Origin: Thermoproteota archaeon
GTDB lineage: Archaea; Asgardarchaeota; Jordiarchaeia; Jordiarchaeales; Freyrarchaeaceae
Direction: 5' to 3'
Assembly: GCA_029258835.1 (NCBI GenBank)
Contig: JAPDJY010000039.1
Coordinates: forward strand, 64,001 to 128,000
Length of the DNA stretch: 64,000 bases
The position numbers and the translations under genes were made by a program. Positions 5,425 to 64,000 of the stretch are shown here, piece after piece. The notes under the pieces were generated by a model. The model searched no databases. It had not been told where the DNA came from and saw only the letters and a program-made list of their open reading frames with translations. Numbering within the stretch: position 1 is the first letter of the stretch; every line of letters begins with the position of its first letter.

Positions 5425-5545
5425 CTTTCAATGCTGCCGTCACTTTTCTTGCTGTAAGGTTTCTTATGGCGAAACTATATAAATACTTTCACAATGAAAG
5501 TAAAGAAACATGGTCATTCTGGGGGGAAATCCTAGAGAAAATTAG

Positions 5546-5632
5546 TGGGCGGGCCAGGATTTGAACCTGGGACCTCCACGGCGTCAACTTCACCCTGATC
5601 GTGTGGCGTCATAACCGCTAGACTACCCGCCC
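5546..5632 (-). tRNA. tRNA-Val(GAC) with a 14-nt intron at 30/31 (5589..5602)
   Basis: Cloverleaf GGGCGGG...CCACG-UUGACGC-CGUGG...UUCAAAU...CCCGCCCA (73 nt) after removing ACGAUCAGGGUGAA; central helix CGCC/GGUG. Confidence 0.9.
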
Positions 5633-7196: not shown

Positions 7197-7922
7197 ATGG
7201 GGGAAGTATTTAATTTGACCCAAGAGGGCAGTTCGATCTCAAAGGGAGACTTTATTCTTGTTGACTTAACTGGCCGTGTAAAAAATGGGGAAGTTTTTGA
7301 AACGACGTCAAAAGATGTTGCTGAGAAAGAGGGAATATATGATGAGGGACAAGCTTATGAACCTAAACTTGTTATTGTGGGTGAGGGATGGATTCTCCCG
7401 AAGTTAGATGAAGTACTGGAAAAAATGAGAGTTGGTGAGACGAGAACTGTTAAAATAGAAAATGCTTTTGGAGAGTGGAAGAGAGAAAATGTTAAGTCCT
7501 TACCACTAAAGGAATTCTTAAAAAGTAATATTGAACCTAAACCAGGAATGCGCGTAAGAATAGGAAACAGGTTAGCTACTGTTAAGAGGGTTGGTGGAGG
7601 GCGGGTTCGTGTTGATTTAAATCATCCTTATGCGGGAAAAACTGTTGTCTATGAGGTCACAATAAAAGAAAAAATAACTGATAAACAAGAGAAGATAAAA
7701 GCATTGATTAGAAGGAGAATGCCGGACATTCCATTAGAAAAAACCAAGATCACAACCAGCAATGAAGAGAGGATCATAATTGAATTACCAAAAGAAGTAT
7801 TATTTGCGGATGGAGTACAGTTTGTTAAGTATGGTATAGCAAATGATCTTAAAAGATACTTGAATTTTGAAGAGATAATATTTGTCGAGAAATATGGCGA
7901 AGAATTACTCGGTAGGTCTTAG
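7197..7922 (+). CDS. slyD: FKBP-type peptidyl-prolyl isomerase, long archaeal SlyD type
   Basis: GDFILVDLTGR..NGEVFETT, VGEGWIL, VRVDLNHPYAGK plus C-terminal extension; start uncertain (7161/7197/7215). Confidence 0.9.
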   Translation: MGEVFNLTQEGSSISKGDFILVDLTGRVKNGEVFETTSKDVAEKEGIYDEGQAYEPKLVIVGEGWILPKLDEVLEKMRVGETRTVKIENAFGEWKRENVKSLPLKEFLKSNIEPKPGMRVRIGNRLATVKRVGGGRVRVDLNHPYAGKTVVYEVTIKEKITDKQEKIKALIRRRMPDIPLEKTKITTSNEERIIIELPKEVLFADGVQFVKYGIANDLKRYLNFEEIIFVEKYGEELLGRS

Positions 7923-14962: not shown

Positions 14963-16426
14963 CTAGCCCTTCACTACTCCAATAGGGCGCAACTTGGCTA
15001 CCAGCGAGGCAATCCCAACCTTGTGGGAGACCTCGGCTACTACGTCTACATCTTTATATGCCTCAGGTGCTTCTTCGCTTACTACTACCATGCTGGCGGC
15101 TTGAACAAGAATTCCTGATTTTTGAAGGTCATCCTTAACCTTCTCTCCCCAAAACTTTTTCTTCGCCCCAGCTCTGCTAAGCCGTCTACCAGCACCATGA
15201 GCGGTCGAGCCAAAGCTCAGTTCCATAGACTCTTTCCTACCTCTCAACACATAGCTGGCAGTCCCCATGGTTCCAGGAATAAGAACAGGTTGACCTATAT
15301 CTCTGTATTTTTGAGGGACTGCAGGGTGTCCTGGAGGAAACGCCCTAGTGGCACCTTTCCTATGGACACAAACAGTTTTTTCTGTACCGTCTACACGGTG
15401 CCGTTCAAACTTAGCGATATTATGGGCCACATCATAGACAAGGTGAATTCCAAGATCCTCCGGGGATGAATTAAAGACCTTGCCAAAGGACTCACGTACC
15501 CAATGCATTATGCATTGCCTATTTGCCCACGCGAAATTAGCGGCAGAAGCCATTGCCGCTAGGTAGTCCTCACCTTCTCTACTTTTACCTGGAACTGCTG
15601 CCAGCTCTCTATCAGGAAGGGAGATGCCATATTTTCTTACAGCATGCTCCATAACTTTTAAGTAATCAGAACAAACTTGATGGCCAAGACCTCTAGATCC
15701 CGTATGGATCATAATTGTAACTTGCCCTTCAAACAGCCCTAAGCATTTCGCTGCTTCACCGTCATAAATACGCTCAACGTATTGTATTTCTAAGAAGTGA
15801 TTGCCACTACCTAAAGTGCCAAGTTGCGGTGCACCTCTACTTTTCGCTTTAGAGGAAACCTTGCCTGCATCTGCCCCTTTAAGACATCCTTCCTCCTCAC
15901 AATAAAACTTATCTTCATCCCAACCGAAGCCTTGATCAACTGCCCAGCTTACGCCGGATTCTAACACTTCATCCAGTTCAGAATGAGATATTCGAATTTT
16001 ACCTTCAGACCCTACTCCGCTAGGTACTTCCTTAAATAGGACGCTTAAAAGGCCTTTGAGTTTAGGAGTAACATCGTCTTTTAAAAGATCCGTTCTAAGA
16101 AGACGCACACCACAGTTAATATCGTATCCTACGCCGCCGGGAGACACTACGCCGCCCTCTTCGAAATCGATGGCGGCAACGCCCCCTATTGGAAAGCCAT
16201 ACCCTTGATGAGCATCAGGTAAAGCGATCGAATGCTTTTGGATTCCAGGGAGGCATGCAACGTTCATGGCTTGAATAAGTGTTTGGTCCTTTTTCATACC
16301 TTCTAGCAACATTTCATTTGCAAAAACTTTAGTAGGTACGCGCATACACTTCTTAGTACCTTTTGGTATCTCCCAAATGAAATTACTTACCTTCTTTAGA
16401 GGAATATTCGCGCTCAAGAACCTCAT
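14963..16426 (-). CDS. rtcB: RNA-splicing ligase RtcB
   Basis: LPDAHQGYGFPIGG, GYDINCG, GSGNHFLE, HTGSRG, HNIAK, HRKGAT, STAHGAGR, EEAPEAYKD. Confidence 0.97.
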   Translation of the reverse strand: MRFLSANIPLKKVSNFIWEIPKGTKKCMRVPTKVFANEMLLEGMKKDQTLIQAMNVACLPGIQKHSIALPDAHQGYGFPIGGVAAIDFEEGGVVSPGGVGYDINCGVRLLRTDLLKDDVTPKLKGLLSVLFKEVPSGVGSEGKIRISHSELDEVLESGVSWAVDQGFGWDEDKFYCEEEGCLKGADAGKVSSKAKSRGAPQLGTLGSGNHFLEIQYVERIYDGEAAKCLGLFEGQVTIMIHTGSRGLGHQVCSDYLKVMEHAVRKYGISLPDRELAAVPGKSREGEDYLAAMASAANFAWANRQCIMHWVRESFGKVFNSSPEDLGIHLVYDVAHNIAKFERHRVDGTEKTVCVHRKGATRAFPPGHPAVPQKYRDIGQPVLIPGTMGTASYVLRGRKESMELSFGSTAHGAGRRLSRAGAKKKFWGEKVKDDLQKSGILVQAASMVVVSEEAPEAYKDVDVVAEVSHKVGIASLVAKLRPIGVVKG

Positions 16427-23182: not shown

Positions 23183-25607
23183 ATGGCCTTGTCAAGAGAC
23201 GAGAGGTTTGTCTTATGGTTTGAAGAGATCAGAAAAGACGATGTACCGATAGTAGGTGGAAAATGCGCGAATCTAGGTGAGTTAACAGCTGAAGTTAAAG
23301 TCCCAGTTCCACCAGGATTCGCTGTGACCACTCATGCATATAAGCAGTTCATAGAAACCACGAAAATAAAGGATAAGATTTTCAAGAAACTTGAAGGTTT
23401 AGACGTAAAAGATATGAAAATGCTTGAAAACGCATCGGCAGAAATAAGAAAGTTAATTGAATCAACCCCTGTACCCGAAGAAATACAGTCTGCCATCTTA
23501 AGTGCATACGATGAACTCTCTAAACGGGCGGGGAAAAATCCCTTTGTAGCCGTCCGCTCTAGCGCCTCGGCAGAGGACAGGTTTTCCAGCCCCTCAGCTG
23601 CCGGGCGCCAGTTTCGCTGGACAACAGGATACATTCTTAAACGTTACTAGAGACGAGCTGGTAAGTAGTGTTAGAAGATGCTGGAGTAGCCTTTTTACGC
23701 CAAGGGCAATAGCATATAGGGAAGAGAAGGGTTTTTCACATGAAGAAGTATCCATAGGCGTAGCTATCCAAGAGATGGTTGACGCTAAAGCAGCAGGGGT
23801 AATGTTTACTATACATCCAGTTACAGGTGAAAGAAATAAAATTCTTATTGAAGCCAATTGGGGGCTAGGAGAAGCCGTAGTAAGTGGCGCCGTAACGCCA
23901 GATACCTATGTCGTAGATAAAGAAACATTTGAGATCATCGACAAACATATTGTAACTAAAAAAGTCGAGTATGTAAGGGACCCAAAAACCGGGAAGACAG
24001 TTCACGCAGAAGTCCCCCCGGAAAGACAGAATATTCCTGCTTTAACAGACGAGGAAATAAAGGCGCTTGCAAAATATGCACTTCAAATAGAACAACATTA
24101 TAGAACACCACAGGATATAGAGTGGGCAGTTGATAAAGATGGGAGAATATTCATACTTCAAGCAAGACCTGAGACGGTCCATTCTGCAGGGGGAATTCAA
24201 GCGCAAGTATTAGAGGCTGCTGAGGAAAGAGAAGTGCTAGTAAGAGGGCTGCCAGTATCCCCAGGCCTAGGAGCAGGAAAAGTTAAAGTTATCTTAGATG
24301 CTAAGGACATAGACAAAGTTAAGGAAGGAGACATTTTAGTTACAAAAATGACCACTCCTGATTGGGTTCCAGCCATGAAAAAGGCAGCGGCAATAGTGAC
24401 TGATGAAGGGGGCTACACGTGCCATGCAGCAATAGTTTCACGTGAACTAGGTGTACCATGCATTGTTGGTACTGGAAATGCAACAGAAGTTCTTGCGAAT
24501 GTGGAGGAAGTAACCGTTGACGGAGGAAAGGGACTAGTCTACCGTGGAATAATTAAAGAAGCAGCTGAAGAGGTGGTGCCTACAGCTGCGGTAACTTATG
24601 CGATAGTGCCGACAGCAACTAAGATATATGTTAACCTTTCAATTCCAGAGATCGCTGATAAAGTTGCAAGGGAAACAAGAGCAGATGGTGTAGGGCTTCT
24701 AAGAGCAGAACACATGATGGTTACCATAGGAAAGCATCCACGCAAACTCATTGAGGAGGGTGGAGACCAGCTTATGGTGGATTCCTTTGCGGAGGGCATC
24801 AGGAAAGTTGCCGAAGCGTTTTATCCTGGTCCTGTCGTATATAGGTTCCTAGACTTTAAGCCTGACGAATTCCTAGCCCTAGAGGGAGGAGAAAAGTATG
24901 AGTTAGAGGCAGGGCATGTAGGACCAAATCCAATGATAGGCTACAGGGGACAATACAGATACGTTAAGGAGCCAGACATATTCAGGCTAGAGTGTAAAGC
25001 AATAAGAAAGGTTAGAGATGAATTTGGCCTTAAAAATGTTTGGGTAATGTTGCCTTTCGTTAGAGACATAGAGATCTTCCGGAAAGTGAAGGAGATAATG
25101 AAGCAGGAGGGGCTGGATCCCGAGAAAGATCCTGACTTTAAACTCTGGATAATGGTGGAGGTCCCAAGTAGCGTCCTGTTAATTGACAAGTTCTGTGAAG
25201 AAGGGATAAACGGAGTGTCTTTTGGCACAAACGACCTAACAATGCTGATACTTGGCGTAGACCGTAACGATGCTTCGGTACAGGAGATATACGATGAACG
25301 AAACCTAGCAGTCCTCAGGGCAATAGCTTACACAATAAAAATATGCAAAAAGTACGGGGTGACAACGTCTATTTGTGGGCAAGCACCCAGCGTTTACCCG
25401 GACTACTTAGAATTCCTAGTTAGGATGGGAGCAACATCAATAAGCGTAAACCCGGACGCTGTACAACGTACACGTGAAATGGTTGCAAGAATAGAGCAGA
25501 AGATACTGATGGAGAAAGCATTAGGAGTTAAAACAAGAATCAAAGTTGGAAAGAATTTCATAGAAGAAGTCGAGTTCTGGAAAAAAGTAGATGACAATTT
25601 AGAATAA
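23183..25607 (+). CDS. ppsA: Phosphoenolpyruvate synthase; spliced join(23183..23578,23598..25607), 801 aa
   Basis: VGGKCANLGEL; after splicing [52 protein letters not shown]. Confidence 0.95.
23579..23597 (+). other. BHB-type intron (19 nt) in ppsA mRNA
   Basis: CGGCA-GAGG-AC|A-GGUU(UUCC)AGCC-CCUC-AG|C-UGCCG: perfect Watson-Crick outer and central helices. Confidence 0.9.
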
Positions 25608-25810: not shown

Positions 25811-27214
25811 ATTATTTCATCCCAGAAATATTATCGTACAATATCTGAAATTTCAGGGCCTCTCATGATTGTAGAAGGAGTGCAGGATGTGGCTTATAAC
25901 GAAGTAGTTCTCATTGAAACTCCTACTGGAGAAACGCGGAGAGGGACTGTTCTGGAAGTAGGGTTAGGGAGAGCGGTTGTTCAAGTTTTTGAGGGGACAA
26001 GAGGCTTAGATGTAAGGGAAACAACTGTTAGGTTTACTGGGGAAACAATGAAGCTGCCAGTATCGATTGATATGATGGGCAGGATCTTTAATGGTTCAGG
26101 TGATCCAATAGATGGAGGTCCGCCAATAATACCAGAGGATGAGCTGGACATTCATGGTTACCCACTTAACCCCTATGCAAGGGAGTATCCAAGGGAATTT
26201 ATCCAGACAGGGATAAGTGTCATCGATGGAATGAACTCTCTCGTTCGAGGGCAAAAGCTGCCAATATTCTCCGGGGCTGGACTTCCGCACAACAGGATAG
26301 CAGTTCAAATAGCTAGACAAGCAAAAGTATTAGGGAAGGAGGAGGAGTTTGCTGTAGTATTCGCCGCAATGGGAATAACAGCGGAAGAGGCAAGGTTCTT
26401 CAGGGCAGACTTTGAAAGGACAGGGGCGCTAGAAAGGGTAGTTGTGTTCATGAACCTTGCGGATGACCCTGCAATCGAGAGAATAATAACGCCACGGGTA
26501 GCACTCACCGCTGCAGAATACCTAGCATACGAACAAGGTATGCACATTCTAGTTATACTCACAGACATGACTAACTACGCTGAAGCTCTGAGAGAGATAA
26601 GTGCAGCAAGAGAAGAGGTTCCCGGAAGAAGAGGATATCCAGGGTACTTATACACCGACTTAGCTACAATATATGAAAGAGCAGGAAGAATATCTGGAAA
26701 GAGAGGAACCATAACTCAAATGCCAATTTTAACTATGCCCAACGATGACATTACGCACCCCATTCCCGACCTTACAGGATACATCACTGAGGGACAGTTG
26801 ATAGTGGACAGAGGATTACATAGGAAAGGAATATACCCACCTATAGATCCCAGACCGAGCTTAAGTAGGTTGATGAAAGAAGGCATAGGTAAAGGAAGGA
26901 CAAGAGCAGATCACAGGGAAGTCAGCGATCAATTGTACTATGCCTATAGTGAAGCAGTGGACTTACGCGCACTAGTAGCAGTAGTTGGTGAGGAAGCACT
27001 CTTACCTCGAGATAGGAAATACTTGGAGTTCGGCGATATTTTTGAAAGGCAATTCATAAATCAAGGGGAATACGAAGAGCGTAGCATAGATGAAACATTA
27101 GATCTAGGATGGGAGCTTTTAAGCATGTTTCCAGAAGGTGAATTAAAAAGGATTGATCCAGAGACAATAGCATGGGCGAAAGAGGAAGGAAAATACACAT
27201 ACAAAGAAGAATAG
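25811..27214 (+). CDS. atpB: A/V-type ATP synthase subunit B; apparent ATT start (first ATG at 25865)
   Basis: [49 protein letters not shown]. Confidence 0.95.
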
Positions 27215-36671: not shown

Positions 36672-36904
36672 CTAGCAAACCTCCAAAAATCACTTTCTTG
36701 GAAGTAGGCAGGAATATTAGAACTACTATTAAAAAGCCAGAAGAGAATACTTTTAAAATTTCCCAAGGGAACCGAGAAAATGTATTTTTAGGATAAAATA
36801 TTAAGGATATGGAAGTGGAAGTTAAGCTTGTTAAGTGAAAAAAGCGTACGGCAATTAGATGAAATAAGAGAGGCCGAAAAATGAAGGTAGTGCATGGTGG
36901 ATCG

Positions 36905-37458
36905 TCAACCTAACTTCCGCTTAATGATCTCTTTAACCAAAAGGTTAAATGCAGCTTCCACGTTTTCACCGTTCTTCGCAGAGGTTTCAAAAAAAGAAGC
37001 GTTTATTTCTTTCGCGTATCTTTTGCCGTCCTCTGTCCGCACCTCCCTAAGGTTAGAGAGGTCAACCTTATTTCCAATAACCACCGTGACAGGTTCCTCC
37101 TTAACATTCTTTAACAATTCCTTACGCCAATTTTCAAGGTTGTCAAAGGTAGAGCGTCGTGTTATATCGTAAACTAGCATCGCCCCGACTGCACCTTGAT
37201 AAAACGTACTACGTACGTGTTTGAAGTGTGGCTGCCCACCTAAGTCCCAAAGCACCAACTTAGCAGTAAGATCGCCTAAGTTAATAATTTTTGAGAAGAT
37301 ATCTATACCTTTAACCCGCTGAGTAGCACGAGCTACCAGCGTATAGTCTTCTTGTAGTCGGCCATAAACCTACCGCTAACATACTTTGATATTAAACTAG
37401 TTTTTCCCACGGCACCATCACCTGCAAGGATCACCTTATAAACAAGTTCCCGTGACAA
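36905..37458 (-). CDS. Rab/Ras-like small GTPase; spliced join(37458..37343,37310..36905), 173 aa
   Basis: TTG start after AAGGGGG; YKVILAGDGAVGKTSL, YKKTI/GIDIF restored by splicing, WDLGGQ, GNKVD, ETSAK. Confidence 0.9.
37311..37342 (-). other. BHB/BHL-type intron (32 nt) in the small GTPase mRNA
   Basis: GACU-AU|A-CGCUG GUAGC(UCGU)GCUAC U CAGCG-GGUU-AA|A; 10-bp intron stem, in-frame TAG, weak outer helix. Confidence 0.85.
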
Positions 37459-37545: not shown

Positions 37546-38885
37546 GTGAACTACCACCCGTTAAAACGGGTGGCTTCCAACATTCGGGGCAGGCTTCTCG
37601 CCTATCCCCTCATCTGCTGGTTCGGGGGTTCACAGCTCTCCTCATCCCATGCCTCTCGTTAAGGCATGGGCTAGGTTAATTGCAGAATTTAAATCCCGAT
37701 TATAGATTAAACTACACTTAGGACATCTAAACTCTCTATCATTAACTTTGGGCAACATGCCCACACTATGACACCCCTTTGAGGTATTCTTTGGATTACT
37801 ATACACTACAGAAATTCCCTCTAAATTAGCTTTGTATTCGATGTATTGCTGTAATTTTCGAAAGCTCCAAGCATGCAACCTTCTGTTTAGCTTAGCAGAA
37901 CTATTCATGTTCTCTCTAATTCCATCAAGCTTCTCCATTGCTATTACTGGCTTTTCGAACTGGCTTAGCGTAAGCAACGATTTAGTTGGTTATTATATGC
38001 AAATGTTAGTTTACAATTTTCTTCTCCTTATGACCAAACCGCTTAACCAAAGTCCAGTCTTTTCTTTCTCTGCAAGTTTCTTCTGATGTGTGCGTATTTT
38101 CCTCTTATTTCTCTTATTCTTTGCTCCGTTCCAAAACTGACCCTTTGTAGGTTTTGGATTTTGCTTTGGTATAGCTACTGCAACAGCTACATTCCACTCC
38201 CCTAAATCTACTCCTATAACAGTTTCTGGCTCATCGATTAGTTCAACGTCTTTCTTAAGCGTGAAGTGTGCATACCACTCCCCGTTTCTCTTCACCATCT
38301 CAACCGTGCAAAATTTCCACTCCCCTTGCAAAGCTTCTTCTATGAATTTTTGCTGTCTCTTCCCAAAGACTATCGGGAGTGTTATCCTCTCCTTGCAATT
38401 AAGGGTTAGAGTAGCCAGCAAGGAGTTAGTTCGTTGTTGTTTTGGCAAAAGAGTAACACCTTTTGTCAAATCTAATTGAAAGTCTCTTCAGCTTGGGTCG
38501 TTCTATTTTGACTTGCCTTTTTTCTTTTTTCATTGAAACTTTTTAGGATTTCCACTGCTTTATCCCTTGCTGTCTGGATTAAGGCGGTGTTCAGGTTGAA
38601 TAGCTGTTTAGCTTTCTCATAGCCATTCTTGTGCAGAGAAGCCTTTGATGTAAAATTGAAGCCTTAGATACCAGTTCACAAGTGCATAATATTCTTCCAA
38701 ACACTTATTCAGAACTAAAACTTTCTTCTTGTTTGGTTTGAAAACCGTTCCTACCACAGTTAGCTGAACTTCTTTCCTCACGGGAACGTCCCTAAAGATT
38801 TTTTAACTCTCTAAGTATTTAATATTAACCTATCCACCTCCCCTAATTCATCCACCTTCACAGATAGGCGGTCTTCTTGCGACAA
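37546..38885 (-). mobile_element. tnpB: Decayed IS200/IS605-family element with multiply frameshifted tnpB (about 37642..38781)
   Basis: GVDLG, MEKL..IR, IEYKANLEG, CPKC, NRDLNSAINL fragments; right-end hairpin GAAGCCACCCGTTTTAACGGGTGGTAGTTCAC; degenerate left-end hairpin near 38845-38880. Confidence 0.85.
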
Positions 38886-46712: not shown

Positions 46713-46840
46713 GCGGGGGTAGCCAAGCGGACAAGGGTCCGCACAACGGCGCTGATCGGATCCTTTCCTCAGGATCCGAGTGGATGCCTTGAGAGCCAGT
46801 TCCCCGTTGGGGAGCGTGGGTTCGAATCCCACCCCCCGCG
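46713..46840 (+). tRNA. tRNA-Ser(UGA) with two introns: D-loop (46733..46744) and 29/30 (46755..46785)
   Basis: Long variable arm, G73; removing 12+31 nt gives CUGGC-CUUGAGA-GCCAG; intron 2 has a 9-bp stem UCGGAUCCU/AGGAUCCGA. Confidence 0.88.
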
Positions 46841-46875
46841 CTAATTTTAACTTTTGTTTTGAAAGAAAGGTTGGT

Positions 46876-63571: not shown

Positions 63572-64000
63572 ATGGCTAATCGAAATGAAGTTGGAACAAT
63601 AAAGTACATTATAAAGGCGAAGATAGAAGTAAACGGGGTGGTCGAGAAGCCTGACGTTATAGGCGCGATTTTTGGTCAAGTACGTTGAGCTCACCGCTCA
63701 CGTAGACCAATTAGAGGGGCTTCTCGGCTCTGAATTAGACCTTCGAGAGTTGCAACGTACGGGTAGGATAGGTAGGATAAGAGCGAACATTGAGACGCAC
63801 GGTGGGAAATCTGTAGGTGAGATTATTATTCCATCAAGTTTGGATAAGGTTGAAACAGCCATCCTTGCTGCGGCGCTTGAAACTATTGATAGAATTGGGC
63901 CGTGTAGTGCGAAGGTAAGTTTTGAGGCAATTGAAGACGTGAGGGAGAGTAAACGCAAGAAGATTATTGAGAGAGCGGTAGAAATTCTTAGGAGGTGGCC
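63572..64000 (+). CDS. dnaG: Archaeal DnaG (primase-like, exosome-associated), partial; spliced join(63572..63679,63711..>64000)
   Basis: [47 protein letters not shown]...[25 protein letters not shown]. Confidence 0.93.
63680..63710 (+). other. BHB-type intron (31 nt) in dnaG mRNA
   Basis: GGUC-AA|G-UACG U UGAGC(UCACC)GCUCA CGUA-GACC-AA|U; perfect central helix, 9-bp intron stem, in-frame TGA. Confidence 0.9.

What the first reader, a model, noticed from the sequence alone, without database searches (positions are those of the whole stretch)
37306..37350. Intron in switch I of a Rab-like GTPase: a spliced eukaryotic signature protein
The ORF track sees only a C-terminal 117 aa. The P-loop exon (GDGAVGKT) lies upstream and is stopped by a TAG inside a 32-nt hairpin insert. 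BHB-register cleavage inside the Ile codon (AU|A) rebuilds YKKTIGIDIF, the G2/switch I motif. The outer helix is weak (relaxed BHL form), which implies a broad-specificity endonuclease. Signature-protein inventories of such genomes may be undercounted.
Basis: partly seen in the sequence, partly recalled or inferred. Interest (0 to 1): 0.88.

Follow-up and report, generated by a model that had tools for sequence, protein, structure and literature searches.

The report
tRNA-type intron splits Asgard GTPase gene
A Rab-like GTPase gene of an Asgard archaeon (Jordarchaeales) is broken in its switch I codons by a 32-base hairpin shaped like a tRNA intron, and relatives show it almost certainly has to be cut out of the mRNA by the tRNA-splicing enzymes, which in the papers I could search is confirmed inside a coding sequence only for the crenarchaeal cbf5 gene.

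Summary
On the minus strand, exon 1 (37458-37343) carries the P-loop. A 32-nt insert (37342-37311) holds an in-frame TAG. Exon 2 (37310-36905) carries the rest of a Ras/Rab-like GTPase. The Pfam Ras profile runs 1-32 in exon 1 and 33-161 in exon 2. The junction folds as a relaxed bulge-helix-bulge motif. It has a 4-bp helix GACU:GGUU, 3-nt bulges AUA and AAA, a 10-bp intron hairpin and no outer helix. Cutting after the second bulge base rebuilds YKKTIGIDIF.

Five other Jordarchaeales lineages carry an insert at the same site. Their lengths are 30-31 nt, so all three phases occur. Each has a stop codon, the ends are invariant and the stem covaries. The exons are under strong purifying selection (dN/dS 0.015-0.05). 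Freyarchaeota orthologues are uninterrupted.

The genome encodes an (alpha-beta)2 EndA with the broad-specificity loop, and RtcB. DNA contigs from three studies contain the insert. No RNA data cover the gene, so splicing itself is inferred.

I verified six more such mRNA introns in this genome: cbf5, aIF2-gamma, kae1, ppsA, dnaG and an acyltransferase. This scan had already noted the orthologous two-intron gene in other genomes, and many such introns in this one.

The parts
37343..37458 (-). Exon 1 of the Rab-like GTPase gene. It has a TTG start, the P-loop GDGAVGKT, and ends ...YKKT + AU of the Ile codon.
   Evidence: Pfam Ras profile 1-32. The same start position is used in orthologues.
37311..37342 (-). 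32-nt BHB-type (HBh'/BHL) intron, phase 2, length 3n+2.
   Evidence: It is unique in the genome and present in DNA contigs of three studies. Homologous inserts of 30-31 nt sit at the same site in five other lineages.
36905..37310 (-). Exon 2. It begins with the A of the Ile codon, then GIDIF..., WDLGGQ, GNKVD, ETSAK, and the TGA stop at 36907-36905.
   Evidence: Pfam Ras profile 33-161, E 2.5e-37.
37345..37348 (-). 5' strand of the 4-bp central helix (exon GACU).
   Evidence: Pairs with 37316-37313. It is paired 4 of 4 in all six lineages, and one lineage changes U:G to C:G.
37313..37316 (-). 3' strand of the central helix (intron GGUU).
   Evidence: Invariant in six lineages although synonymous sites are saturated.
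37342..37344 (-). 5' bulge AUA. The predicted cut is after 37343.
   Evidence: The rule 'cut between 2nd and 3rd bulge residue' is stated in PMC2738675.
37310..37312 (-). 3' 'bulge' AAA. The predicted cut is after 37311. No outer helix closes it.
   Evidence: outer helix 0 bp in all six lineages.
37317..37341 (-). Intron hairpin (h'): 5 bp, a bulged U, 5 bp, and loop UCGU.
   Evidence: Covariation: 4 pairs changed on both sides, and 100% of 75 cells are paired against 26-43% in the slid controls.
37333..37335 (-). In-frame TAG that ends the unspliced reading frame.
14966..16273 (-). rtcB, the RNA ligase expected to join the exons (G000:C1:78966-80273).
   Evidence: PF01139, E 1.6e-182, open frame 494 aa, no stops.

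Best explanation
The 32 nt at 37342-37311 (minus strand) are an archaeal bulge-helix-bulge intron inside a protein-coding gene. In the pre-mRNA, the exon bases GACU pair with the intron bases GGUU. A 10-bp intron hairpin stacks on that helix. This presents the bulge AUA and the unpaired AAA to the heterotetrameric (alpha-beta)2 splicing endonuclease EndA. EndA cuts after the second base of each bulge. RtcB joins the 2',3'-cyclic phosphate and 5'-OH ends. The mature mRNA then encodes a 173-aa Rab-like GTPase with an intact switch I (YKKTIGIDIF), and the intron is probably released as a small circle. Shown here: the sequence, the motif geometry, restoration of the frame and the profile, conservation with covariation across six lineages, purifying selection on the exons, and the presence of the enzymes. 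Inferred: the cleavage and ligation themselves, and the requirement that splicing precede translation.
For: 1. Excision at the BHB cut sites joins Pfam Ras profile position 32 to 33. It gives an intact protein with G1-G5 motifs that matches the uninterrupted Freyarchaeota orthologues, which read GDGAVGKT...YKMTLGTNIF.
2. Five other syntenic Jordarchaeales lineages carry an insert at the same site. Their lengths are 30, 30, 31, 30 and 30 nt against 32 here, so all three length classes modulo 3 occur. Each has an in-frame stop. Only excision at the same bulge positions restores the frame in every one.
3. The intron ends (A|CA... and ...GGGUUAA|A) are invariant and the loop is free to vary. The stem covaries: 4 pairs changed on both sides and all 75 cells paired, against 26-43% when the partner is slid.
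4. The exons are under strong purifying selection. dN/dS is 0.015-0.05, and synonymous sites are saturated against the window (pS 0.83-0.95).
5. The insert is real DNA. Contigs of three independent studies span it with no gap.
6. The machinery is present. The EndA alpha subunit scores 4e-46 to A. pernix 3P1Z_B, with the L1 loop aligned and Tyr/His/Lys present. The beta subunit has the catalytic His replaced. RtcB is also encoded.
7. A chance BHB in the right register is about 0.1-0.9%.
8. The same cut rule rebuilds conserved motifs in six other genes of this genome and in a second, P-loop intron of the orthologues.
Against: No transcript evidence was obtained. The only RNA run that shares words with the region does not cover the gene. 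The outer helix is missing, so the 3' cut site is not in a closed bulge, and cleavage of this relaxed form by this particular EndA is untested. In the window's own sequence the minimum-free-energy fold (-22.2 kcal/mol) uses a competing exon-exon helix, CUAUAC/GUAUAG, in place of the central helix. The BHB-constrained fold is -17.8 kcal/mol. That competing helix is not conserved in the orthologues. The central helix is weak: two G:U pairs, one A:U and one C:G.
Confidence: 0.9

Rival explanations
1. Translational recoding. The ribosome passes the insert by programmed frameshifting or by hopping, as in phage T4 gene 60, without any RNA cutting.
For: A stop codon and a stable hairpin lie just after the last exon-1 codon, as in T4 gene 60. 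In the orthologues' P-loop insert a GGA codon precedes the insert and another GGA ends it, which resembles a take-off and landing pair.
Against: At the switch I site there is no conserved matching take-off and landing codon. The codons are AUA then GGU AUA here, but AUA then GGC AUC or GGU AUU in the orthologues. The insert lengths fall in all three classes modulo 3, so no single frameshift direction works. Conservation is at BHB positions (GGUU, AA|A) and the stem covaries next to fixed 3-nt bulges. Hopping at the P-loop site would give Thr in some lineages, whereas the BHB cut gives the Ala seen in the window and in Freyarchaeota.
Confidence: 0.03
2. Decaying pseudogene. The insert is a disruptive insertion and the gene is no longer expressed as a GTPase.
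For: The frame is broken and gene callers report only truncated ORFs of 93-149 aa in all close relatives. The genome has other small-GTPase paralogues that could compensate.
Against: Both exons stay intact and in the correct post-excision frame in six lineages whose synonymous sites are saturated. dN/dS is 0.015-0.05. All G motifs are kept. The insert's ends and structure are themselves conserved. Synteny is conserved.
Confidence: 0.02
3. The hairpin is an RNA-level element processed or read in another way. One possibility is cleavage by a different nuclease. Another is a conditional switch in which the unspliced, truncated state is the default and splicing is rare or regulated.
For: The motif is relaxed, with no outer helix. 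A competing fold is more stable in the window sequence. No RNA data exist. A BHB intron in a Haloferax 5' UTR was suggested to affect expression (PMC7714728).
Against: The exact 4-bp helix and 3-nt bulge geometry, the cut-after-second-base rule and the presence of (alpha-beta)2 EndA with RtcB all fit the standard pathway. Regulated splicing would be a refinement of the best explanation and not an alternative to it.
Confidence: 0.04
4. Assembly or sequencing artefact.
For: The source is a 91-contig metagenome-assembled genome with 6% estimated contamination.
Against: Contigs from three independent studies carry the identical insert with no gaps. Orthologues from NCBI, JGI, ENA and Logan assemblies carry homologous inserts.
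Confidence: 0.005

Closest known systems
BHB intron of the cbf5 (pseudouridine synthase) pre-mRNA in Crenarchaeota (Watanabe 2002; Yoshinari 2006; Yokobori 2009, PMC2738675)
   Same: It is a short intron inside a coding sequence with a mostly relaxed BHB motif. The cut falls between the 2nd and 3rd bulge residues. It is linked to the hetero-oligomeric EndA. It shows lineage-specific gain and loss, and gene callers report split ORFs.
   Different: The gene is different (a Ras/Rab-like small GTPase) and so is the phylum (Asgard, Jordarchaeales). The orthologues carry two introns in one gene. Here it is one of many interrupted genes in the genome. Splicing is not yet shown experimentally, whereas cbf5 splicing is.
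Non-canonical BHB/BHL introns of archaeal tRNA genes, including the heavily interrupted tRNAs of Atabeyarchaeia and Freyarchaeia (PMC11291895; bioRxiv 10.64898/2026.10.13.758758)
   Same: The motif is the same: a 4-bp helix, 3-nt bulges and an intron hairpin. The size range is the same (tens of nt) and so is the presumed EndA/RtcB machinery. This genome's tRNA genes are also intron-rich: ARAGORN finds 23, 18 of them with introns.
   Different: [quoted passage not shown] The product must keep a reading frame.
BHB intron in the 5' UTR of Haloferax volcanii HVO_1309 (PMC7714728)
   Same: It is an EndA substrate within an mRNA, and its excision was confirmed in vitro and by circRNA-seq.
   Different: It lies in an untranslated leader and not in codons. 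The enzyme is a homodimeric alpha'2 EndA and the motif is canonical.
Unconventional HAC1/XBP1 mRNA splicing in eukaryotes (Ire1 plus Trl1 or RTCB)
   Same: Splicing is protein-catalysed and spliceosome-independent. A short intron is bounded by stem-loops in a coding mRNA, the ends are 2',3'-cyclic phosphate and 5'-OH, and RtcB-family ligation is used in metazoa. This comparison rests on established knowledge, and the topic appears in papers listed.
   Different: The nuclease is Ire1 and not EndA/TSEN, the recognition motif differs, and the process is stress-regulated. No homology is implied.

Membership tests
Archaeal BHB (EndA-dependent) intron | A 4-bp central helix flanked by two 3-nt bulges on opposite strands | tested here: met
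   GACU:GGUU is paired 4 of 4, with 3-nt AUA and AAA at the required offsets, in the window and in five orthologous lineages. The 5' bulge is closed on both sides. The 3' one is open; see the next row.
Archaeal BHB (EndA-dependent) intron | Flanking helices h (exon-exon, outer) and h' (intron, inner) of at least 2 bp, as in the strict hBHBh' form | tested here: not met
   h' has 9-10 bp, but h has 0 contiguous pairs in all six lineages. The motif is therefore the relaxed HBh'/BHL form and not the strict one. Relaxed forms are accepted members for (alpha-beta)2 and epsilon2 enzymes (PMC5829648) and are the usual form in cbf5.
Archaeal BHB (EndA-dependent) intron | Cutting between the 2nd and 3rd bulge residues yields the functional product | tested here: met
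   Pfam Ras 1-32 joins 33-161. The frame is restored for insert lengths 32, 31 and 30. The product matches uninterrupted orthologues.
Archaeal BHB (EndA-dependent) intron | The host encodes a splicing endonuclease able to cut relaxed motifs, and an RtcB ligase | tested here: met
   The alpha subunit (190 aa) has the L1/CSL loop aligned to A. pernix 3P1Z_B at 4e-46. The beta subunit has the catalytic His replaced. RtcB scores E 1.6e-182.
Archaeal BHB (EndA-dependent) intron | The intron is absent from the mature RNA (spliced junction, circular intron) | not testable with these tools
   No RNA run was listed for the gene, and the one RNA run that was laid does not cover it.
Ras/Rab-like small GTPase (Pfam PF00071) | G1 GxxxxGK[ST], G2 Thr, G3 DxxGQ, G4 NKxD and G5 SAK motifs, and a profile match over the curated cut-off | tested here: met
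   The spliced product has GDGAVGKT, YKKTIG, WDLGGQ, GNKVD and ETSAK. PF00071 scores 33.5 bits on exon 1 and 128.4 bits on exon 2, against a cut-off of 21.6. A relative is named 'Rab family GTPase' by NCBI. Assignment to Rab in particular, as against Ras or another subfamily, was not tested.
Group I / group II self-splicing intron | A ribozyme core of hundreds of nt | tested here: not met
   The insert is 32 nt. Rfam at gathering scores finds nothing here.

The most novel reading that the evidence does not exclude
This intron is one member of a genome-wide population of EndA/RtcB-spliced introns in protein-coding genes of Jordarchaeales, numbering dozens and possibly more than a hundred per genome. 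They sit preferentially in the codons of the most conserved motifs: P-loops, switch I and catalytic residues. These Asgard archaea would then splice mRNAs routinely and must keep translation from running ahead of splicing. The cbf5 intron of this genome lies between the 1st and 2nd letters of the catalytic Asp codon, which is the site reported for Crenarchaeota. That suggests such introns either predate the Asgard/TACK split or home to the same sites.
Probability: 0.6. Interest if true: 0.92.

Novelty: new member of a known kind. Interest (0 to 1): 0.8.

Why it matters
In the papers I could search, cbf5 of Crenarchaeota is the only archaeal coding sequence reported to be spliced by the tRNA-splicing machinery, with one 5'-UTR case in Haloferax. 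Here the same mechanism is needed to make a eukaryote-like small GTPase in an Asgard archaeon. The intron has been kept for a long time, and the orthologues have two introns in one gene. It is also not alone: three genes in this 64-kb window and at least seven in the genome are interrupted in the same way. If transcripts confirm it, a close prokaryotic relative of eukaryotes has interrupted protein genes and enzymatic mRNA splicing as a normal part of gene expression. That bears on how transcription-translation coupling can tolerate introns, and on the annotation of Asgard proteomes, where such genes are called as fragments or pseudogenes. It is directly testable by RT-PCR and by an EndA cleavage assay.

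Tried and rejected
**RNA evidence.** No RNA holder was listed for the gene. The single metatranscriptome run sharing words with the region (X19) covers only 36711-36907 and 37546-37680, not the gene. This says nothing either way about expression or splicing.

**Copies of the intron elsewhere in the genome.** blastn-short found none. The covariance model R1 matched only the orthologous site in G000 and G001 among 11 genomes of the order.

**Genome-wide ORF-merging scan for BHB motifs.**
- The first version timed out.
- Loose versions showed no excess over +-1-nt decoy registers: about 26,100 against 26,000-26,400 per strand, and 7,587 against 7,492-7,734 with a coding score. Open alternative frames and adjacent co-directional genes swamp the signal.
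- An excess of about 25-30 loci appeared only after adding the observed 'AA|N' 3'-bulge rule: 303 against 273-281, and 108 against 78-80. That rule was taken from the examples, so this is a rough lower bound and not a census.

**Motif-free pilot.** ORFs from 400 kb of the Freyarchaeota genome G006 were searched by tblastn for split hits. It gave three candidates. One is a textbook BHB intron (C28). Two (C70:6472-6900 and C16:13033-13537) have no BHB under my criteria and may be frameshifts or alignment slop. I did not fetch the rest of G006.

**Order of gain and loss of the P-loop intron.** The protein tree is unresolved.

**Thermodynamic folding alone.** The MFE structure of the window sequence shows the hairpin but not the central helix.

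**Target-site duplication.** The short TATA direct repeat at the insert's borders is not conserved in the orthologues, so I rejected this idea.

Full report
**What is in the sequence.** The gene lies on the minus strand. A 41-aa ORF (37458-37333, TTG start) encodes LSRELVYKVILAGDGAVGKT...YKKTI and then runs into RW and a TAG. The called 117-aa ORF (37258-36905) is the C-terminal part of a small GTPase, and its frame is open upstream to 37369. Pfam Ras (PF00071) matches the upstream piece at profile positions 1-32 and the piece starting at GIDIF (37309) at positions 33-161, with E 2.5e-37. Exactly 32 nt therefore separate two halves of one domain. Deleting 37342-37311 gives a 173-aa protein with all five G motifs: GDGAVGKT, YKKTIG, WDLGGQ, GNKVD and ETSAK.

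**Motif geometry.** In transcript orientation, the exon bases GACU (37348-37345) pair with the intron bases GGUU (37316-37313). The three bases AUA (37344-37342) and AAA (37312-37310) lie on opposite strands at the two ends of this 4-bp helix. The intron bases 37341-37317 form a hairpin of 5 bp, a bulged U and 5 bp, with loop UCGU. Archaeal EndA cuts between the second and third residues of each bulge, and the cbf5 paper states this rule (PMC2738675). Cutting there gives AU|A ... AA|A and rebuilds the codon AUA followed by GGU, i.e. TIG.

**Chance.** I shuffled the insert 200,000 times. A motif with the central helix and at least 5 inner pairs arose in any of seven nearby registers 254 times (0.13%). 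With at least 3 inner pairs it arose 1,714 times (0.86%). In the 800-nt gene region, 23 of 52,000 position/length combinations pass the structural rule, and the frame-restoring one is among them.

**Relatives.** A protein search found that every relative at 74% identity or more is a truncated ORF of 93-149 aa, one of them named 'Rab family GTPase [Candidatus Jordarchaeales archaeon]'. Relatives at about 61% identity, one named 'Candidatus Freyarchaeota', are full length at 168-178 aa. I fetched the DNA of the truncated ones and of the orthologue in a sister genus (G001).

- All are syntenic: LysE, GTPase, 2-hydroxyacid dehydrogenase, AsnC-type regulator.
- Five distinct lineages carry an insert at the same place, of 30, 30, 31, 30 and 30 nt, each with an in-frame stop.
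- With the window's 32 nt, all three length classes modulo 3 occur. Only excision at the same bulge positions restores the frame in every case.
- The insert's first bases and last seven bases (GGGUUAA) are invariant, and the loop varies freely.
- The stem covaries. After alignment to a covariance model, all 75 cells form standard pairs and four pairs show changes on both sides. Sliding the 3' partner by 1-3 columns gives 26-43% pairing. That alignment is fitted to the structure, so the counts lean towards it, but the changes are also visible in the raw sequences.
- One lineage changes the exon base of a central-helix U:G pair into C:G.

**Selection.** After in-silico splicing, all six genes encode intact 171-175-aa GTPases. 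Synonymous sites between the window and the others are saturated (pS 0.83-0.95), while amino-acid identity stays at 76-82%. Where dS can be estimated, dN/dS is 0.015-0.05. This rules out a decaying pseudogene. It also shows that the invariant intron ends are themselves under constraint.

**The insert is real DNA, and RNA is missing.** Contigs from three independent metagenome studies (hydrothermal vent and marine sediment) span the gene and the insert with no gaps and only two substitutions outside the intron. No intron-less DNA form appeared. No RNA run was listed for the gene, and the one metatranscriptome I laid does not cover it. Splicing is therefore inferred and not observed.

**Machinery.** The genome (2.72 Mb, 91 contigs, about 95% complete) has two EndA-domain genes.

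- The first is a 190-aa protein that matches the catalytic subunit of the A. pernix heterotetramer (3P1Z_B, 4e-46) without gaps through the Crenarchaea-specific (L1) loop, and it keeps the catalytic Tyr, His and Lys.
- The second has Ala where the aligned catalytic unit has His.

This is the (alpha-beta)2 architecture that cleaves relaxed motifs, that was linked to cbf5 mRNA splicing, and that was reported for Asgard archaea (PMC5829648 and PMC2738675). RtcB lies in this same window at 14966-16273.

**Paralogues and outgroup.** tblastn with the spliced protein finds ten other small-GTPase paralogue hits in the genome. Four align end to end without a break, and the six with partial alignments read through the switch I and P-loop positions without interruption when translated. 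The Freyarchaeota orthologues read GDGAVGKT...YKMTLGTNIF without a break. All five other Jordarchaeales lineages have a second insert of 44-55 nt in the P-loop codons. The same cut rule turns it into GDG-A-VGKT, which is the sequence of the window and of Freyarchaeota. The window gene lacks this second intron. Whether it lost it or never had it is unresolved.

**Context in the genome.** Prompted by earlier notes of this scan, I tested other cases myself. The same rule rebuilds conserved motifs in six other genes.

| Gene | Place | Intron | Evidence |
|---|---|---|---|
| cbf5 | C27 | 27 nt | GTLD\|P; DKCLD in exon 1, TruB_N 17-149 in exon 2 |
| aIF2-gamma | C27 | 30 nt | GHVDHGK\|TTL |
| kae1 | C27 | 14 nt | GPGL\|GPCL |
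| ppsA | window 23579-23597 | 19 nt | PPDK_N 2-113 joins 114-315 |
| dnaG | window 63680-63710 | 31 nt | NF003108 1-26 joins 28-122 |
| acyltransferase | C28 | 32 nt | found without using the motif, from split tblastn hits |

- The cbf5 intron splits the catalytic Asp codon after its first letter, the position reported for Crenarchaeota.
- A crude genome scan gives an excess of about 25-30 frame-restoring BHB sites over decoy registers. This holds only with a 3'-bulge rule taken from the examples.
- ARAGORN finds only 23 tRNA genes, 18 of them with introns. This fits the reports of heavily interrupted Asgard tRNA genes (PMC11291895; bioRxiv 10.64898/2026.10.13.758758).

**Rivals.**
- Recoding by frameshift or hopping fails. 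The three length classes need different shifts, no matching take-off and landing codons are conserved at this site, and the conserved positions are those of the BHB.
- A pseudogene is excluded by the selection analysis.
- An artefact is excluded by independent assemblies.
- A regulated or inefficient splice remains possible. In the window sequence a competing exon-exon helix makes the MFE fold (-22.2 kcal/mol) more stable than the BHB-constrained fold (-17.8 kcal/mol). That helix is not conserved in the orthologues.

**What is known.** In the library I could search, cbf5 is stated to be the only archaeal coding sequence with a confirmed BHB intron. One 5'-UTR intron is reported in Haloferax, and introns in other genes were only 'predicted'. 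Papers on Asgard introns deal with tRNA genes only.

**Earlier notes of this scan.** The scan had already reported the orthologous two-intron GTPase gene in other Jordarchaeales genomes, and BHB mRNA introns in other archaea. Some of those reports describe RNA-derived contigs that lack the intron. I did not check those RNA claims.

**Verdict.** This is a new member of a known kind. It is strongly supported by comparative evidence and awaits transcript proof.

Noticed in passing
window 23579-23597 (+): A 19-nt BHB-type insert lies in ppsA (PEP synthase). Exon 1 matches PPDK_N profile 2-113 and exon 2 matches 114-315. Excision rebuilds ...SSASAED|LPGASFAGQQ....
   Followed up: yes
window 63680-63710 (+): A 31-nt BHB-type insert lies in dnaG (archaeal primase). 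NF003108 profile 1-26 lies before it and 28-122 after it. Excision rebuilds ...GAIFGQ|LEGLLG....
   Followed up: yes
G000:C27:11929-11955 (+), locus L033 1547-1573: cbf5 carries a 27-nt BHB intron that splits the catalytic Asp codon after its first letter (GTL-G|AC-P). This is the position described for the crenarchaeal cbf5 intron in PMC2738675. Either the intron is ancient or there is a shared insertion site.
   Followed up: partly
G000:C27:26080-26109 (-) and about C27:22172-22185 (-): aIF2-gamma has a 30-nt insert in its P-loop codons (GHVDHGK|TTL). kae1 has a 14-nt insert (GPGL|GPCL). Both fit the BHB cut rule.
   Followed up: partly
L002 1356-1399; also L023, L024, L028, L031: Orthologues of the GTPase in five other Jordarchaeales lineages have a second BHB insert of 44-55 nt in the P-loop codons (GDG|AVGKT). 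The window gene lacks it.
   Followed up: yes
all verified introns (window 37311-37342, 23579-23597, 63680-63710; C27; C28:12833-12864): Every intron I verified sits in the codons of a highly conserved motif: P-loop, switch I, catalytic Asp or a nucleotide-binding loop. The 3' bulge is almost always AA|A. This may be ascertainment bias, because motifs are how I recognised the introns, or it may be a real insertion or retention preference.
   Followed up: no
window 37546-37578 and 37643-37680, next to ORFs 37642-37977 and 38011-38469 (-): Two short segments are repeated in the metagenomes, since many contigs break at their edges. 37546-37578 is very abundant in an RNA run, at depth about 450. 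They flank two adjacent ORFs that look like a split TnpB-type (IS200/IS605) gene with a zinc-ribbon end. This may be an omega-RNA or a transposon end.
   Followed up: no
window 5545-5632 (-) and 46713-46841 (+): ARAGORN without intron mode calls 5545-5632 'tRNA-Asp (atc)', 88 nt long. With introns allowed it is tRNA-Val(GAC) with a 14-nt intron at the non-canonical position 32. A tRNA-Arg(ACG) with a 57-nt intron at 46713-46841 is missed by the plain run and by Rfam at gathering scores.
   Followed up: partly
G000:C70:6472-6900 (-) and G000:C16:13033-13537 (+): Two genes give split, frame-shifted tblastn hits against Freyarchaeota ORFs, with 14 and 10 extra nt. I found no BHB at the break. They may be frameshifts, very short or atypical introns, or alignment slop.
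   Followed up: no
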